Shown: positions 7,798-24,750, counted from the first letter of the stretch. The stretch is 64,000 nucleotides of DNA from an uncultured Clostridia bacterium (GCA_934169745.1 CAKPOE010000004.1:72268-136267), one strand, 5' to 3'. Numbers and translations are program-made. The notes: generated from the sequence alone by a model not told the origin.

Positions 7798-7825
7798 TAG
7801 ACAAATTTCTCTTTCATGTTATAAT
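7798..7825 (+). promoter_or_regulatory. Sigma-A-type promoter of T4SS-like module 1 (extended -10)
   Basis: TAGACA-N16-TGtTATAAT. A strong RBS (AAAGGTGGTG) and ATG at 7847 lie downstream. A perfect 0A-box heptamer TGTCGAA sits at 7752-7758 upstream. Confidence 0.5.
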
Positions 7826-7846
7826 GCGCTTAAAGGTGGTGATGAA

Positions 7847-8083
7847 ATGAAATTGCACCAATACTACCTTTTCTTATTTTTAGTATTACCTATACTATCG
7901 ATTATTTTGAATTCTGTATTACCAACTCCCATTTTGATTAAAATATTTTTCTACTCGTTATTAGTTCATACAGTAGTTTCACTATACATGGTATACTCTC
8001 TTTTTGAAGTACGCATTCTTCACGAAAAGCAAGGTTCCAAACTAACTTTAAGCAAAGGTAAGATAACTACAGACTGGAGATGA
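7847..8083 (+). CDS. Small two-TM membrane protein, first gene of T4SS-like module 1
   Basis: 78 aa: MKLHQYYLFLFLVLPILSIILNSVLPTPILIKIFFYSLLVHTVVSLYMVYSLF… Its stop overlaps the ATG of the next gene (ATGA coupling). The track ORF start at 7751 lies upstream of the promoter. Confidence 0.45.
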   Translation: MKLHQYYLFLFLVLPILSIILNSVLPTPILIKIFFYSLLVHTVVSLYMVYSLFEVRILHEKQGSKLTLSKGKITTDWR

Positions 8084-9765
8084 TTTCTATACAAATTCCG
8101 AAAGTATTATACAACAAATTTGTTTTTATTGCAATAACTGTTACCTGTATAATCATATTTCAATTATTGTTTTTTTCCAAATTGTATAAATTATCCGACA
8201 TCTCAATTGATTTCCTTGATAGTACACTTGACATTGAAACCTGGTTATGGAATTATATTAAAACTTTTTACCTCATAACTGTTATTATTTCATGGATTTT
8301 TATTTCTTATACTTTTCATAAATATTTCCCTATCCCTCAAGAAAAAGAAATAGCAAAAATTAACGAAGACGGTTTAAAACTTTTCGTTGGAAATAATCTC
8401 TCATCTGGTGAAACCATAACAATTCCAGAAAGCGGTCTATATCAAAACATTCTTATTACTGGAACAATAGGTACAGGAAAAACCTCTTCTGCCATGTACC
8501 CGTTTGTAAATCAATTGTTAGAACAAAATCTTGGTATGCTAATCTTAGATGTAAAAGGAAACTTTTACAAGAAAATACTAGAACTAAACGAAATTTATCA
8601 CAGAAATGTAATTGTATTAGAACTAAATGGAAAGTACACTTATAATCCTTTAGATAAACCTAATCTTAAGCCTTCAATCTTGGCTAATCGCCTTAGAACT
8701 ATTTTAACTTTGTTTTCTAACCAACAAGTAACTGACACTTATTGGCTAGATAAAGTAGAAAGTTATCTGACGGAGTGTATTAAACTATGCCGACTCTACA
8801 ATGATAACTACGTTACTTTTATTGAACTACATAAGTTAATAAATTCACCTGAATATTTAGAAGAAAAAATTTCAGTTGCCAAAAACAAGTTTCTTTCTAA
8901 TTTGTTTTCGGTTCAACAAATTCATGATTTTAATTCCCTATTGGATTTTTTCCAAACAGAGTACAAAACTCTAGACTCAAAGGTATTATCAATAATACAA
9001 TCAGAAGTTTCTAGAGTTACTCAAATATTCGTTAATGATTATGAAATAAGTAATGCCTTTTGTCCCCCAAAATCAAAAGTTACCTTCTCAGGATTTAGTA
9101 ATTTAGAAAATGATATTGTAGTTCTAAACATGAATGTGGCCGAATATCGAAATTTATCAAAGATTCTTGCTACATATCTTAAATTAGATTTTCAGTCAGA
9201 AGTTTTAATGCGATTAGCCAAATCAAATAAAATTAAACCTGTAGCATTCTTGTGTGATGAATACCATGAATATGCCACAGAAAATGACGCGAATTTCTTT
9301 TCGGAAAGTCGTGAAGCCAAATGTATAAACATTGTATCAACGCAAAGTTACACTTCACTCTTGAACGCTATAAAAAACGAAGCTAGTGCAAAAGTTATAA
9401 TTCAAAGTCTTGTTAATAAAATATGGTTTCGTGCGGATGATACTTACACAATTGAAGAAGCACAAAAACAACTTGGTAAAGAAGATAAAGTAAAGTTTTC
9501 ACGTAGCATCTCAGAAAATGCAAAAGAGACAAAGTATAGTTATATTTTAAAAGCCTTTAAATCAGATAATTCAAGTCTTTCAGAAAGTATTAGTACACAA
9601 ATTCAGCACGATTATATATATGATTTTAATGCTTTTTCTCGAGAACTTAAAACGTTTCAAGCAATTTGCTTTCTGTCCACAGGCTCTCAAATACTTCAAC
9701 CACAAGTTGTTCAACTTGTTCCACTCCACACTCAAAATTTTAATATGAAAGGAAGATTTATATGA
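8080..9765 (+). CDS. Type IV secretion coupling protein (VirD4/TraG/TraD family ATPase)
   Basis: 561 aa. Two N-terminal TM helices, Walker A ILITGTIGTGKTSS, DVKGNFY motif and Walker-B-like AFLCDEYHEY. This architecture is typical of T4CPs. Confidence 0.75.
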   Translation: MISIQIPKVLYNKFVFIAITVTCIIIFQLLFFSKLYKLSDISIDFLDSTLDIETWLWNYIKTFYLITVIISWIFISYTFHKYFPIPQEKEIAKINEDGLKLFVGNNLSSGETITIPESGLYQNILITGTIGTGKTSSAMYPFVNQLLEQNLGMLILDVKGNFYKKILELNEIYHRNVIVLELNGKYTYNPLDKPNLKPSILANRLRTILTLFSNQQVTDTYWLDKVESYLTECIKLCRLYNDNYVTFIELHKLINSPEYLEEKISVAKNKFLSNLFSVQQIHDFNSLLDFFQTEYKTLDSKVLSIIQSEVSRVTQIFVNDYEISNAFCPPKSKVTFSGFSNLENDIVVLNMNVAEYRNLSKILATYLKLDFQSEVLMRLAKSNKIKPVAFLCDEYHEYATENDANFFSESREAKCINIVSTQSYTSLLNAIKNEASAKVIIQSLVNKIWFRADDTYTIEEAQKQLGKEDKVKFSRSISENAKETKYSYILKAFKSDNSSLSESISTQIQHDYIYDFNAFSRELKTFQAICFLSTGSQILQPQVVQLVPLHTQNFNMKGRFI

Positions 9766-10079
9766 TTAAAAAAGTTCTTTTATTTACTTTTATATTCACT
9801 TTACTATTCACATCCATATGTTATTGTGCAAGCGACCCAAAACTAGTTAAAAATATAAACTCAGGACTTGAAAAGATAAAAAGTTGGATAATAAAAATCT
9901 CAACGCCAGCAGCCGCAGTTGCTATCGGCACTGGTGTACTCATGAAGAAATTTAGCTTTGGAGATGAGGAGAGAATTGTTGTCGGTAAAAAGCTTATTAA
10001 GAGCACACTTTTTTCCTATGCTTTCATTTTAAGTGTTGATTTAGTATTAAACGTCATTTCCACACTAGCAAAAGGATAG
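9762..10079 (+). CDS. VirB2/TrbC-like candidate pilin (signal peptide + two hydrophobic helices)
   Basis: 105 aa. Cleavable signal peptide (…FTSICYCA), then hydrophobic segments ISTPAAAVAIGTGVLM and LFSYAFILSVDLVLNVI. Translationally coupled to the T4CP gene (ATGA). Confidence 0.4.
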   Translation: MIKKVLLFTFIFTLLFTSICYCASDPKLVKNINSGLEKIKSWIIKISTPAAAVAIGTGVLMKKFSFGDEERIVVGKKLIKSTLFSYAFILSVDLVLNVISTLAKG

Positions 10080-24066: not shown

Positions 24067-24144
24067 ACAACATTCCTTTCTAGCCCCATTAATCGCCTAT
24101 TAAAGCAATTTTTCATTATTAATATAACTTCATCAATTGTACAC

Positions 24145-24669
24145 TCATGTACTGTATTTCCGAATTGCCAACAAACACTCTTTTATTTTAGAAATGTTTT
24201 CGGCCATATTATTGTTTCCCTTAATAACAATATAAAATTTTCTAGAAACATTCTTTTTTGAAGTTACAACCTCATTTGCAAAATTAATATAGTCTTCAAC
24301 CATTTCAGATAACTTTTCATCTTCTTGTGCAAATTTTTTCATTTTAGTCAAATGTTTAGAAATATCTGTTACTTGCGTTTGTACAACTATTTGCATGTCA
24401 AAATTGCAGGTCTTTAAAAATCGTTTATATCCATTTAGTACTGCCGTTTTTTCAAAATCAGATTTGAGTTCAAAATTAATTGGCTCTACTTCTAAAATTT
24501 TCACAACTGTACCATTTTTTAATAAAACGCCATTCCCTTGTACACTTTCGATAGGAATCCAATCTTTGGTTGAAATCTTTATATTATTTGCTTCGGTTTT
24601 TAAATTAAGCAAATCTTTTAAAATAATTATTATCACCTCCAAATTATTTACAAAAAGCAAAAAGGGCAT
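24145..24669 (-). CDS. VirB4-family N-terminal domain encoded as a separate 174-aa ORF
   Basis: …IPIESVQGNGVLLKNGTVVKILEVEPINFELKSDFEK… resembles the N-terminal region of Gram-positive VirB4-like ATPases (TcpF/Orf16). Separated from the C-part ORF by 78 nt containing in-frame stops. Confidence 0.5.
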   Translation of the reverse strand: MPFLLFVNNLEVIIIILKDLLNLKTEANNIKISTKDWIPIESVQGNGVLLKNGTVVKILEVEPINFELKSDFEKTAVLNGYKRFLKTCNFDMQIVVQTQVTDISKHLTKMKKFAQEDEKLSEMVEDYINFANEVVTSKKNVSRKFYIVIKGNNNMAENISKIKECLLAIRKYST

Positions 24670-24721
24670 AACTTCCCTGTTAGGAAAGTTAGTGCCCTTA
24701 TCAACTAACTTATTTGTCTAC

Positions 24722-24750
24722 ATCATAATACGGACCTTAAAAAAAGTCAA
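24722..24750 (-). promoter_or_regulatory. Putative sigma-A promoter of the VirB4/Tad-like operon
   Basis: Minus strand TTGACT-N17-TATGAT about 60 nt upstream of the RBS/ATG at 24669. 0A-box heptamer TGTCGAA (minus strand, + coords 24770-24776) lies just upstream of the -35. Confidence 0.4.

What the first reader, a model, noticed from the sequence alone, without database searches (positions are those of the whole stretch)
7798..24750. The two T4SS/Tad modules are convergent and separated by core genes; an inversion would restore canonical TcpE(VirB3)->VirB4 adjacency
Module 1 ends with a TcpE/VirB3-like gene (10974-11264, +) and module 2 starts with VirB4 (24669->, -). In Gram-positive T4SS, VirB3-like and VirB4 genes are adjacent and co-directional. 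Here they are inverted relative to each other and separated by dnaD-like, dnaC-like, a high-GC orphan ORF, gyrA-like, ispG and a small ORF. This implies a chromosomal inversion or recombination with one breakpoint exactly at the VirB3|VirB4 junction. The other breakpoint may relate to the minC/minD split (see the separate finding).
Basis: inference. Interest (0 to 1): 0.55.

Follow-up and report, generated by a model that had tools for sequence, protein, structure and literature searches.

The report
Anciently split chromosomal type-IV secretion genes
Two halves of a conjugation-like secretion machine face each other across DNA-replication genes, but a whole group of uncultured gut Clostridia shares this layout, so it is old and inherited, not a recent inversion or an assembly error.

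Summary
The gene layout is real, with corrections. Module 1 (+ strand) is a 78-aa membrane protein, VirD4, a VirB2-like pilin, VirB6 and a PrgI/VirB3-like 96-aa protein. It runs straight into dnaB-like and dnaI-like genes. Module 2 (- strand) is a TrsD-like ORF (24145-24669), the VirB4 ATPase (22237-24066, not "24669->"), then TadZ/CpaE-like, TadA/VirB11-like and TadB/C-like genes and a 236-aa helical protein. It lies upstream of ispG-gyrA.

The break falls exactly at the VirB3|TrsD-VirB4 boundary. The three ORFs are colinear with one 942-aa PrgI-VirB4 fusion on a Vescimonas plasmid, and a distant Bacilli MAG has the genes contiguous.

The split is ancient:
- In 15 of 15 informative species-level relatives (VirD4 51-81%, gyrA 71-93% identity), module 1 sits upstream of dnaB-dnaI.
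- Module 2 sits upstream of gyrA, and the two modules are never adjacent.
- Independent assemblies confirm both junctions.
- No inverted repeats or IS remnants flank the junctions.
- Third-codon GC skew has equilibrated to the present orientation.
- All genes are under purifying selection.

The best reading is a vertically inherited T4SS/Tad hybrid with no relaxase found, resembling the Patescibacteria chromosomal T4SS. Its function is unknown.

The parts
7798..7825 (+). Promoter-like site of module 1 (TAGACA-16-TGTTATAAT). It is conserved, together with an upstream TTTTGTCGAATTTTGT box, in relatives.
7847..8083 (+). 78-aa 2-TM protein with a conserved C-terminus (HEKQGSKLTLSKGKI). Its stop overlaps the VirD4 start. 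This is the first gene of module 1.
8080..9765 (+). VirD4-like type IV coupling protein with an N-terminal TM segment. It is at most 27% identical to any plasmid T4CP.
9762..10079 (+). VirB2-like pilin candidate with a signal peptide and 2 TM segments. The core STPAAAVAIGTGVLMKKFSFGDEERI is highly conserved.
10087..10977 (+). VirB6/TrbL-like polytopic membrane protein
10974..11264 (+). PrgI/TcpE/VirB3-like 2-TM protein (orf96). It overlaps the VirB6 stop. Its reading frame is continuous with VirB6 in three relatives.
11332..12309 (+). dnaB-like gene (DnaB_2/DnaD-domain replication initiation protein), 66 nt after orf96. No terminator is predicted between them.
12324..13322 (+). dnaI/dnaC-like helicase loader (NCBIfam PRK06835 equivalog), followed by a terminator at 13369-13400
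13538..13909 (+). Orphan 123-aa ORF with no homologue in any relative's locus. It lies in a variable cargo spot between dnaI and gyrA. A bidirectional terminator follows at 13930-13963.
13962..16412 (-). gyrA (true DNA gyrase subunit A). It lies downstream of module 2 in all relatives that keep the block.
16522..17601 (-). ispG, with its own promoter-like site at 17642-17614. It is found between module 2 and gyrA only in this species.
18048..18758 (-). 236-aa all-helical soluble protein, the last gene of module 2. It is conserved across the clade, has no known family and has no PDB fold match.
18772..19713 (-). TadB/C-like (T2SSF) inner-membrane platform protein
19701..20987 (-). TadA/CpaF/VirB11-type secretion ATPase (T2SSE; best NCBIfam hits are VirB11 and the TadA conjugal-transfer-associated ATPase)
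20981..22237 (-). TadZ/CpaE-like protein: a receiver-like N-terminal domain followed by a ParA/MinD-type ATPase
22237..24066 (-). VirB4 ATPase lacking the N-terminal region. It aligns to positions 183-730 of the 752-position CD1110-family profile.
24145..24669 (-). TrsD/TraD-like ORF (homologue of the VirB4 N-terminal region; PF26593 in the 99%-identical orthologue). A frameshift cuts off about 30 C-terminal codons, which remain readable in another frame at 24063-24170.
24660..24750 (-). Conserved promoter of module 2 (TTGACT-17-TATGAT, 24750-24722), followed by a leader hairpin with a U-tract (about 24691-24660)
24670..25335 (.). 666-nt spacer between minC and module 2. It contains no gene remnant, no IS, no repeat shared with the other junction and no Rfam match.

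Best explanation
The two modules are the two halves of one chromosomally fixed, vertically inherited type IV secretion gene set of the Gram-positive (MPF-FATA-like) kind.

Composition:
- One half is orf78-VirD4-VirB2-like-VirB6-VirB3-like, placed in front of dnaB-dnaI.
- The other half is TrsD-VirB4 plus a Tad-like trio (TadZ/CpaE-like, TadA/VirB11-like ATPase, TadB/C-like platform) and a 236-aa helical protein, placed in front of gyrA.

History. An ancestral contiguous cluster (pilin-VirB6-VirB3-TrsD-VirB4) was broken exactly between VirB3 and TrsD on the stem of a clade of uncultured, small-genome gut Clostridia. The clade includes a MAG labelled Ca. Fimenecus, a genus placed in Acutalibacteraceae/Oscillospirales. 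The split layout has been inherited ever since.

How it works. Each half has its own conserved sigma-70-type promoter. The products would assemble in trans in the membrane:
- VirB3-like, VirB6 and TrsD/VirB4 form the translocon.
- VirD4 acts as substrate receptor.
- The VirB2-like protein is the pilin.
- The TadZ-like protein places the machine.
- TadA and TadB/C act as an extra motor and platform.
Gene adjacency of VirB3 and VirB4 is therefore not needed.

Function. No relaxase, integrase, VirB8-like protein or cell-wall hydrolase accompanies it. It is probably not a self-transmissible element but a domesticated machine whose substrate is unknown.

Shown versus inferred. Shown: gene content, the conserved layout, the age of the orientation and purifying selection. 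Inferred: that the halves form one machine, the roles of the parts and the function.
For: - Domain assignments.
- Colinearity of orf96, TrsD and VirB4 with one fused plasmid protein.
- Contiguous canonical order in the distant cluster L027.
- Conserved layout. Module 1 is followed by dnaB-dnaI in 15 of 15 informative species from the GTDB scan, and also in metagenome species L029/L030. gyrA is convergent within 6 kb in 9 species. Module 2 lies beyond gyrA in 5 of the 6 loci that reach that far. The block TrsD/VirB4-CpaE-(CpaF-TadB)-236-gyrA is kept in L001, L005 and L007 even though their outer flanks differ.
- Independent assemblies of near-identical strains cover both junctions: L032 (VirD4 99%) and L004 (98.3% nucleotide identity, gapless over 5536 nt).
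- No repeats or remnants at the junctions.
- Coding-strand GC3 skew is -0.27 to +0.25 for the module 1/dnaB/dnaI genes and -0.28 and -0.14 for two other + strand genes, against +0.12 to +0.59 for - strand genes.
- pN is 0.10-0.25 against pS of about 0.8 for all T4SS/Tad genes, similar to dnaB, dnaI, mreC and minC. VirB4 dN/dS is 0.087 against the near-identical strain.
- Both promoters are conserved.
- The halves are complementary: neither has a full set.
- In L022, VirD4 and VirB6 are fragmented and module 2 is absent beside gyrA.
Against: - There is no rooted species tree, and all relatives are MAGs or metagenome contigs. 'Ancestral' therefore rests on breadth of conservation, not on a reconstruction.
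- The VirB3 and VirB2 assignments are weak at the sequence level.
- Nothing shows directly that products of the two halves interact.
- The TrsD-like ORF is frameshifted in this strain and in a second, near-identical one.
- VirB4 or CpaF are broken in some MAGs, and CpaF plus TadB/C are missing in L021 and L025. Parts of the system are therefore dispensable, and the set could be decaying in some lineages.
- gyrA is not within 6 kb of dnaI in 4 species (L013, L016, L019, L029/L030).
- The cluster may never have been contiguous in this lineage if it was acquired in two pieces.
Confidence: 0.72

Rival explanations
1. A recent chromosomal inversion or recombination in this genome separated VirB3 from VirB4.
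For: The break coincides with the canonical VirB3|VirB4 junction. Module 2 abuts minC where minD would normally follow.
Against: - The same layout occurs in all informative relatives, down to 51% VirD4 and 71% gyrA identity.
- GC3 skew has equilibrated to the present strand.
- No inverted repeats or IS remnants flank the junctions.
- A single inversion does not reproduce the positions of dnaB-dnaI and minD-minE-rodA.
Confidence: 0.03
2. An assembly misjoin at one or both junctions.
For: None, beyond the unusual order and a long (666-nt) spacer at one junction.
Against: Independent assemblies from other samples reproduce minC-spacer-TrsD-VirB4 (L004, 98.3% identical, gapless) and VirB6-orf96-dnaB-dnaI (L032). 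Relatives have the same adjacencies.
Confidence: 0.01
3. The two modules are unrelated leftovers that do not work together: a degenerate ICE fragment (module 1) and a separate VirB4/Tad-like locus (module 2).
For: - They are 13 kb apart, on opposite strands, with separate promoters.
- No relaxase, VirB8 or hydrolase was found.
- TrsD is frameshifted here, and genes are broken in L021, L022 and L007.
- The CpaE-like and 236-aa proteins have no plasmid homologues.
Against: - Both halves are kept intact under purifying selection across the clade.
- Their contents are complementary: VirB4 is in one only, and VirD4, VirB6, VirB3 and VirB2 are in the other only.
- The three ORFs that span the break are colinear with one fused protein.
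- Both halves appear lost or decayed together in L022.
Confidence: 0.15
4. The cluster was never contiguous in this lineage. The two halves were acquired or integrated separately next to replication genes.
For: No member of the clade with a contiguous cluster was found. T4CP genes are often encoded far from virB4 in other systems (PMC12102498).
Against: Module 1 carries VirB6, VirB3 and the pilin, not just the T4CP. The order pilin-VirB6-VirB3 | TrsD-VirB4 continues exactly the order of contiguous clusters. A split within what is one gene in relatives is easier to explain by breakage.
Confidence: 0.1

Closest known systems
Gram-positive (MPF-FATA) conjugative T4SS, such as the CD1110/CD1115-family clusters, pCF10 Prg, pCW3 Tcp and Vescimonas fastidiosa plasmid pMM35_02
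   Same: - VirB4 is 34% identical over 95% of its length to the plasmid protein.
- A TrsD-like region, a PrgI/VirB3-like protein, VirB6 and a VirD4-type coupling protein are all present.
- The order pilin-VirB6-VirB3 and the order TrsD-VirB4 match contiguous clusters.
   Different: - The cluster is split between VirB3 and TrsD into two convergent chromosomal operons.
- No relaxase, integrase, VirB8-like protein or hydrolase was found.
- It is vertically inherited with housekeeping neighbours.
- VirD4 is at most 27% identical to any plasmid T4CP.
- VirB4 scores below the CD1110 equivalog cut-off (281.6 bits against 325).
- An extra TadZ/TadA/TadB-like trio is present.
Chromosomal T4SS of Patescibacteria (Microb Genom 2025, PMC12102498)
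   Same: - The recurrent parts list is the same: VirB4, TrsD, PrgI/VirB3, VirB6 and VirB2-like pilins of PF18895.
- The T4CP is often far from virB4.
- A relaxase is mostly absent.
- The location is chromosomal, next to replication genes (there dnaA/dnaN).
- That paper interprets it as a T4SS co-opted for something other than conjugation.
   Different: - The host here is Clostridia, not Patescibacteria.
- The neighbours are dnaB/dnaI and gyrA.
- Tad-like genes are attached.
- Whether the VirB4 falls in or next to the Patescibacteria clade was not tested.
Tad/Flp (type IVc) pilus loci and the actinobacterial TadA 'conjugal transfer-associated' ATPase neighbourhood
   Same: A TadZ/CpaE-like ParA/MinD ATPase with a receiver-like N-terminus, a TadA/CpaF-type T2SSE ATPase and a T2SSF platform protein lie in a row.
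   Different: - No Flp pilin and no prepilin peptidase were found.
- There is only one T2SSF gene.
- The trio is embedded behind VirB4.
- The ATPase scores at least as well against VirB11.
- The ATPase and platform are absent in sub-lineage L021/L025.
Scattered T4SS genes in Rickettsia genomes
   Same: It is a precedent for a T4SS whose genes are dispersed in several chromosomal islands (mentioned in PMC12102498). That it is a conserved, functional system of the rvh kind is my own recollection.
   Different: That system is Gram-negative and of the P-type (own knowledge). It was not compared here.

Membership tests
Type IV secretion system (general) | VirB4-family ATPase | tested here: met
   P-loop_TraG 93.6 bits and AAA_10 55.3 bits. 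The CD1110-family VirB4 profile gives E=1.3e-83, below its equivalog cut-off.
Gram-positive conjugative T4SS (MPF-FATA) | Coupling protein (VirD4/T4CP) | tested here: met
   TrwB_AAD_bind 47.5 bits and TraG-D_C 25.7 bits, both above their cut-offs.
Gram-positive conjugative T4SS (MPF-FATA) | VirB6-like polytopic membrane protein | tested here: met
   TrbL 29.5 bits against a cut-off of 25.9, with at least 5 hydrophobic segments.
Gram-positive conjugative T4SS (MPF-FATA) | VirB3/PrgI/TcpE-like protein adjacent to or fused with VirB4 | tested here: not met
   A PrgI-like protein exists (hhalign E=2e-4; PrgI hits of E=0.1 or weaker in 3 of 12 orthologues; 2 TM segments). But it is 13 kb from VirB4 on the other strand, in all relatives.
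Gram-positive conjugative T4SS (MPF-FATA) | VirB8-like (PrgL/TcpC) protein and a cell-wall hydrolase (VirB1/CwlT/TcpG/PrgK) | tested here: not met
   None lies in or beside either module. The only unassigned module protein (236 aa) is all-helical and soluble. The contiguous cluster L027 does have an M23/lysozyme protein.
Conjugative element (ICE or plasmid) | Relaxase, and an integrase or replication module of the element, with horizontal distribution | tested here: not met
   No relaxase or integrase domain occurs in any ORF of 7-25 kb or among the larger ORFs of the window. The distribution is vertical, with conserved housekeeping neighbours. A genome-wide relaxase search was not possible.
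Tad/Flp pilus | TadA/CpaF ATPase, TadB/TadC platform and TadZ/CpaE | tested here: met
   T2SSE 81 bits; T2SSF 27.2 bits against a cut-off of 25.2; ParA/MinD-type ATPase with a receiver-like N-terminus. Only one platform gene is present.
Tad/Flp pilus | Flp-type pilin and a prepilin peptidase (TadV/CpaA) | tested here: not met
   Neither was found in the locus. The 64-aa ORF at 17809-18003 has no Flp motif and is interrupted in L001.
Patescibacteria-type chromosomal T4SS | Repertoire of VirB4 + TrsD + PrgI + VirB6 + VirB2-like pilin, chromosomal, no relaxase nearby | tested here: met
   All five parts are present (some weakly). The set is chromosomal, lies next to replication genes and has no relaxase in the window.
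Patescibacteria-type chromosomal T4SS | VirB4 inside the monophyletic Patescibacteria clade | not tested

The most novel reading that the evidence does not exclude
A large clade of small-genome gut Clostridia carries, as part of its core genome, a domesticated T4SS without a relaxase, fused with a Tad-like motor. Its two halves are hard-wired into replication operons (helicase loader dnaB-dnaI; gyrA). This would be a Firmicutes counterpart, and possibly a relative or source, of the essential chromosomal T4SS of Patescibacteria. It would serve cell-cell interaction, DNA exchange or uptake rather than self-transfer.
Probability: 0.35. Interest if true: 0.65.

Novelty: new variant of a known kind. 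Interest (0 to 1): 0.4.

Why it matters
As a rearrangement, the finding is ordinary: an old, fixed gene-order change with no sign of recent activity and no assembly problem.

What lies underneath is more useful.
- A T4SS/Tad hybrid is conserved, under purifying selection, in thousands of 90%-identity protein clusters from human, ruminant, rabbit and chicken gut metagenomes.
- It has no recognisable relaxase.
- Each half is locked to a DNA-replication or DNA-topology gene.
- It gives a non-Patescibacteria example of a chromosomal, apparently co-opted monoderm T4SS.
- It offers a natural experiment showing that VirB3 and VirB4 need not be encoded together.
- It provides a candidate machine for how abundant uncultured Oscillospirales interact with other cells or with DNA.

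Tried and rejected
- Exact-sequence look-ups of the window's gyrA and 236-aa ORFs found nothing, probably because the start codons differ.
- The repeat search over 7-26 kb gave only short AT-rich chance matches. One arm of a 23-nt pair lies in the 11265-11331 spacer, but its partner is inside VirB4.
- tblastn of all window proteins against the junction spacers found no minD or other gene remnant.
- Rfam found nothing in 7380-8100 except a chance miRNA match, and nothing in 24600-25400.
- The CpaE-like and 236-aa proteins have no homologues in 72,556 plasmids.
- The metagenome scan with a CpaE-like alignment, meant to find outgroups with a contiguous cluster, returned two more clade members and 43 generic MinD/ParA loci.
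- The top-120 lists for VirB4 and VirD4 never left the clade, so no close outgroup was obtained.
- The 236-aa protein gave a confident all-helical AlphaFold model (pLDDT 81). It had no PDB fold match at E<=0.001 and no profile match to PDB sequences.
- Literature searches found no description of this Clostridial system.
- tRNA-targeted ICE integration was considered because of the tRNA-Thr/Glu/Lys genes at 7158-7395. It was rejected: there is no integrase, the module lies at the 5' side of the tRNAs, and the flank differs in relatives.

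
Full report
**What is in the sequence**

The window is low-GC (about 31%). Its GC skew is uniformly negative, so the - strand is the leading strand throughout.

Between a tRNA-Thr/Glu/Lys cluster (7158-7395, -) and minC (25336-25983, -) lie two gene blocks that face each other.

The + strand block:
- The listed 103-aa ORF (7425-7736) is an artefact. It is antisense to a DUF1858/TIGR03980 gene at 7478-7660 (-).
- The block really starts at a strong promoter-like site (7798-7825) with a 78-aa 2-TM ORF (7847-8083).
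- Then come a VirD4-type coupling protein (8080-9765), a VirB2-like pilin candidate (9762-10079), VirB6/TrbL (10087-10977) and a 96-aa 2-TM ORF (10974-11264). Successive genes overlap or nearly abut.
- Sixty-six bases later come a DnaB_2/DnaD-domain gene and a dnaI/dnaC-type helicase loader (PRK06835 equivalog). The first predicted terminator is at 13369-13400.

The - strand block starts at a promoter-like site (24750-24722) and contains:
- a 174-aa ORF (24145-24669);
- the VirB4 ATPase (22237-24066);
- a CpaE/TadZ-like ParA/MinD ATPase with a receiver-like N-terminus;
- a T2SSE ATPase whose best NCBIfam matches are VirB11 and the 'TadA family conjugal transfer-associated ATPase';
- a T2SSF-like membrane protein;
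- a 236-aa soluble helical protein.

ispG, with its own promoter-like site, and a bona fide gyrA follow on the same strand. A 123-aa orphan ORF sits in the convergent gap.

**Check of the observation**

Three details are not.

1. The ORF starting at 24669 is not VirB4. It is a separate TrsD/TraD-like protein: NF041427 at E=2e-8; a match to residues 81-250 of a mycoplasma ICE VirB4 model; and PF26593 'TraC-like' on record for the 99%-identical orthologue. The VirB4 ORF aligns only to positions 183-730 of the CD1110-family VirB4 profile. Most relatives have the same two-gene form (about 600-aa VirB4), and some have a fused form of about 756 aa.
2. Module 1 has no Tad genes.
3. The VirB3/TcpE label of the 96-aa ORF gets no significant Pfam hit. 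A profile of 12 orthologues aligns over 85 columns to the PrgI part of a PrgI-VirB4 fusion protein (hhalign E=2e-4, probability 47%). Three orthologues give weak PrgI hits. The protein is a 2-TM hairpin with an invariant FP.N...K..G.I.Y motif. I accept it as VirB3-like with moderate confidence.

**Does the break sit at the VirB3|VirB4 junction? Yes**

On Vescimonas fastidiosa plasmid pMM35_02, the closest annotated plasmid relative of this VirB4 (34% identity over 95%), one 942-aa 'PrgI family protein' holds all three pieces:
- orf96 aligns to residues 9-98;
- the TrsD-like ORF aligns to residues 131-267 (E=7e-14);
- VirB4 aligns to residues 335-925 (E=3e-114).

A distant cluster in a Bacilli MAG (L027) has T4SS_pilin, VirB2/TrbC, TrbL/VirB6, TcpE/PrgI, TrsD-like, VirB4, an M23/lysozyme hydrolase and VirD4, all co-directional and contiguous.

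The window's order pilin-VirB6-VirB3 | TrsD-VirB4 is the same series, cut once. An ancestral contiguous cluster broken at this point is the most economical history.

**Is it a recent inversion or a misjoin? No**

- A scan of one genome per GTDB species with the VirD4 protein found 18 close relatives, all uncultured Clostridia MAGs from rumen, rabbit, human and other guts. One is labelled Ca. Fimenecus, a genus described as GTDB CAG-180 in Acutalibacteraceae, Oscillospirales, with genomes of about 1.8 Mb.
- In all 15 whose contig reaches far enough, orf78-VirD4-pilin-VirB6-orf96 is followed directly by dnaB-dnaI on the same strand.
- In 9 of them gyrA is convergent within 6 kb.
- In 5 of the 6 loci that extend past gyrA, the 236-aa gene and the rest of module 2 follow.
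- Seen from the VirB4 side, the block TrsD/VirB4-CpaE-CpaF-TadB-236-gyrA recurs in relatives with 71%, 54% and 53% VirB4 identity, although the outer flanks differ. The flanks are metG/TatD in L001; rsmI on one side and M18, minD and minE on the other in L005; and radC-mreBCD-PBP-minC in L007. L033 also has minC upstream, but its contig ends before gyrA.
- A common human-gut species (L029/L030) again has DUF1858 | VirD4-pilin-VirB6-small ORF-dnaB-dnaI.
- In no locus are the two modules adjacent.
- The junction spacers share no repeat and contain no IS or gene remnant.
- Third-codon GC skew is a clock for orientation. The - strand genes have coding-strand GC3 skew of +0.12 to +0.59. VirD4, the pilin gene and dnaI have -0.24 to -0.27, like unrelated + strand genes elsewhere in the window (-0.28 and -0.14). 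The + strand block has therefore long been on the lagging strand.

**The suggested second breakpoint at minC|minD**

Module 2 does begin right after minC, where minD follows in ordinary Firmicutes. In L005, minD-minE lie just beyond gyrA. So the T4SS/gyrA block does interrupt the min operon.

In the window, however, minD-minE-rodA lie on the same strand upstream of radC (34616-37310). dnaB-dnaI, not minD, follow the VirB3-like gene. One inversion cannot produce this, and the history involved more steps than I can reconstruct.

**Are the genes alive?**

- Against three species, every T4SS/Tad gene has pN of 0.10-0.37 with synonymous sites saturated (pS about 0.7-0.9). This is the same range as dnaB, dnaI, mreC, minC and radC.
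- Against the near-identical strain, VirB4 has dN/dS of 0.087.
- Both promoters are conserved in sequence across species.
- Decay does occur. The TrsD-like ORF of this strain and of L004 carries a frameshift that removes about 30 conserved C-terminal codons, along with the ancestral ATGA overlap with VirB4.
- L021 has a frameshifted VirB4, and L007 has a split CpaF.
- L022 has VirD4 in three pieces, VirB6 in two pieces and no module 2 next to gyrA.
- L021 and L025 lack the T2SSE and T2SSF genes altogether.

**What it most likely is**

It is one T4SS of the monoderm kind whose genes are kept in two operons, with a Tad-like trio attached to the VirB4 half.

- In this lineage the VirB3-like gene is coupled to VirB6 rather than to VirB4. 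The genes overlap here, and the reading frames are continuous in L011, L014 and L019.
- There is no relaxase, integrase, VirB8-like protein or hydrolase in the locus. No relaxase domain was seen among the window's larger ORFs.
- The coupling protein is at most 27% identical to any plasmid T4CP. The CpaE-like and 236-aa proteins have no plasmid homologues.
- Together with vertical inheritance, this argues for a domesticated machine rather than a mobile element.
- Its substrate and role are not shown by anything here. The 236-aa protein gave a confident helical model without a fold match.

**Comparison with known systems**

- The nearest described analogue is the chromosomal T4SS of Patescibacteria. 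It shares the recurrent parts (VirB4, TrsD, PrgI, VirB6, PF18895-type VirB2-like pilins), a T4CP often far from virB4, mostly no relaxase, and a location beside replication genes. That paper reads it as a co-opted system (PMC12102498).
- The same paper notes that T4SS genes are dispersed in Rickettsia genomes, so split T4SS loci have precedent.
- I found no paper describing this Clostridial system.
- It fails the membership tests for a conjugative element and for a complete Tad pilus. Phylogenetic membership in the Patescibacteria clade is untested.

**Verdict**

The inference of a rearrangement at the VirB3|VirB4 junction is reasonable as ancient history. The rearrangement itself is ordinary. 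The conserved T4SS/Tad hybrid, with no relaxase found and tied to dnaB-dnaI and gyrA, is a new variant of a known kind and deserves moderate interest.

Noticed in passing
window 24063-24260 (-): The TrsD-like ORF is frameshifted. It ends ...ECLLAIRKYST*, while another frame continues GNTVHECTIDEVILIMKNCFNRRLMGLERNVV*. That frame matches the C-terminus of the L001 orthologue, and its stop overlaps the VirB4 ATG. The same frameshift is in the independent 98.3%-identical contig L004, so it is probably real.
   Followed up: partly
window 24655-24750 (-); L001 9272-9362; L007 9303-9392; L033 1171-1232: A conserved promoter (TTGACx-17-TATGAT) is followed by a leader hairpin and U-tract upstream of TrsD-VirB4. 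The fold has z=-3.2, and 5 of 12 pairs show compensatory changes across 4 species. There is no Rfam match. It is possibly a transcription attenuator of the module 2 operon.
   Followed up: partly
window 7740-7860 (+); L009 9660-9780; L010 2990-3125: The module 1 promoter (TAGACA-16-TGTTATAAT) and an upstream box TTTTGTCGAATTTTGT are conserved between species with 77-81% VirD4 identity. The box is a possible regulator site.
   Followed up: no
window 7425-7736 (+) / 7478-7660 (-): The 103-aa + strand ORF is spurious. The real gene is a 60-aa DUF1858 / hybrid-cluster-protein-associated redox disulfide protein on the - strand. It is also conserved divergently upstream of VirD4 in L029, L030 and L032.
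   Followed up: yes
window 13323-13961; L001 19197-21435; L007 19425-21404; L024 6625-9402: The convergent gap between dnaI and gyrA holds different cargo in each species: an orphan 123-aa ORF here, HipA_C plus HTH genes in L001, AAA_21 plus RloB (defence-like) in L007, and a 925-aa protein in L024/L026. It looks like an insertion hotspot.
   Followed up: partly
window 16522-18007: ispG sits between module 2 and gyrA only in this species. The 263 nt at 17752-18007 are 70% identical to the spacer directly upstream of gyrA in L001, so ispG seems to have been inserted behind the old gyrA leader.
   Followed up: partly
L011 3070-4278; L014 12129-13334; L019 9766-10980: The VirB6 and VirB3-like reading frames are continuous, with no stop between them, in three species. 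These are possible VirB6-VirB3 fusion proteins, or MAG indel errors.
   Followed up: no
L022 9995-21381; L021 12682-14220; L007 13177-14473: There are signs of decay in some MAGs. L022 has VirD4 in 3 pieces, VirB6 in 2 pieces and no module 2 after gyrA. L021 has a frameshifted VirB4. L007 has CpaF split into 305 + 130 aa.
   Followed up: partly
L021 10493-12722; L025 9362-11314: A sub-lineage has VirB4-CpaE-like-236-like-gyrA without the T2SSE ATPase and T2SSF platform genes. The Tad-like motor is therefore an accessory part of the block.
   Followed up: partly
window 34616-37310 (-) and 25336-31282 (-): minD-minE-rodA lie upstream of radC-mreB-mreC-mreD-PBP2-minC on the same strand, so minC is separated from minD by about 10 kb. 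In L005, minD-minE lie just past gyrA. The T4SS/gyrA block interrupts the usual minCDE order.
   Followed up: partly
window 17757-17808 and 32932-32982; window 13323-13356 and 53630-53693: Short similar non-coding stretches occur in different intergenic regions: 52 nt at 81% identity, and 30-34 nt at 85-90% identity in both orientations. They could be shared regulatory or terminator-like elements, or chance.
   Followed up: no
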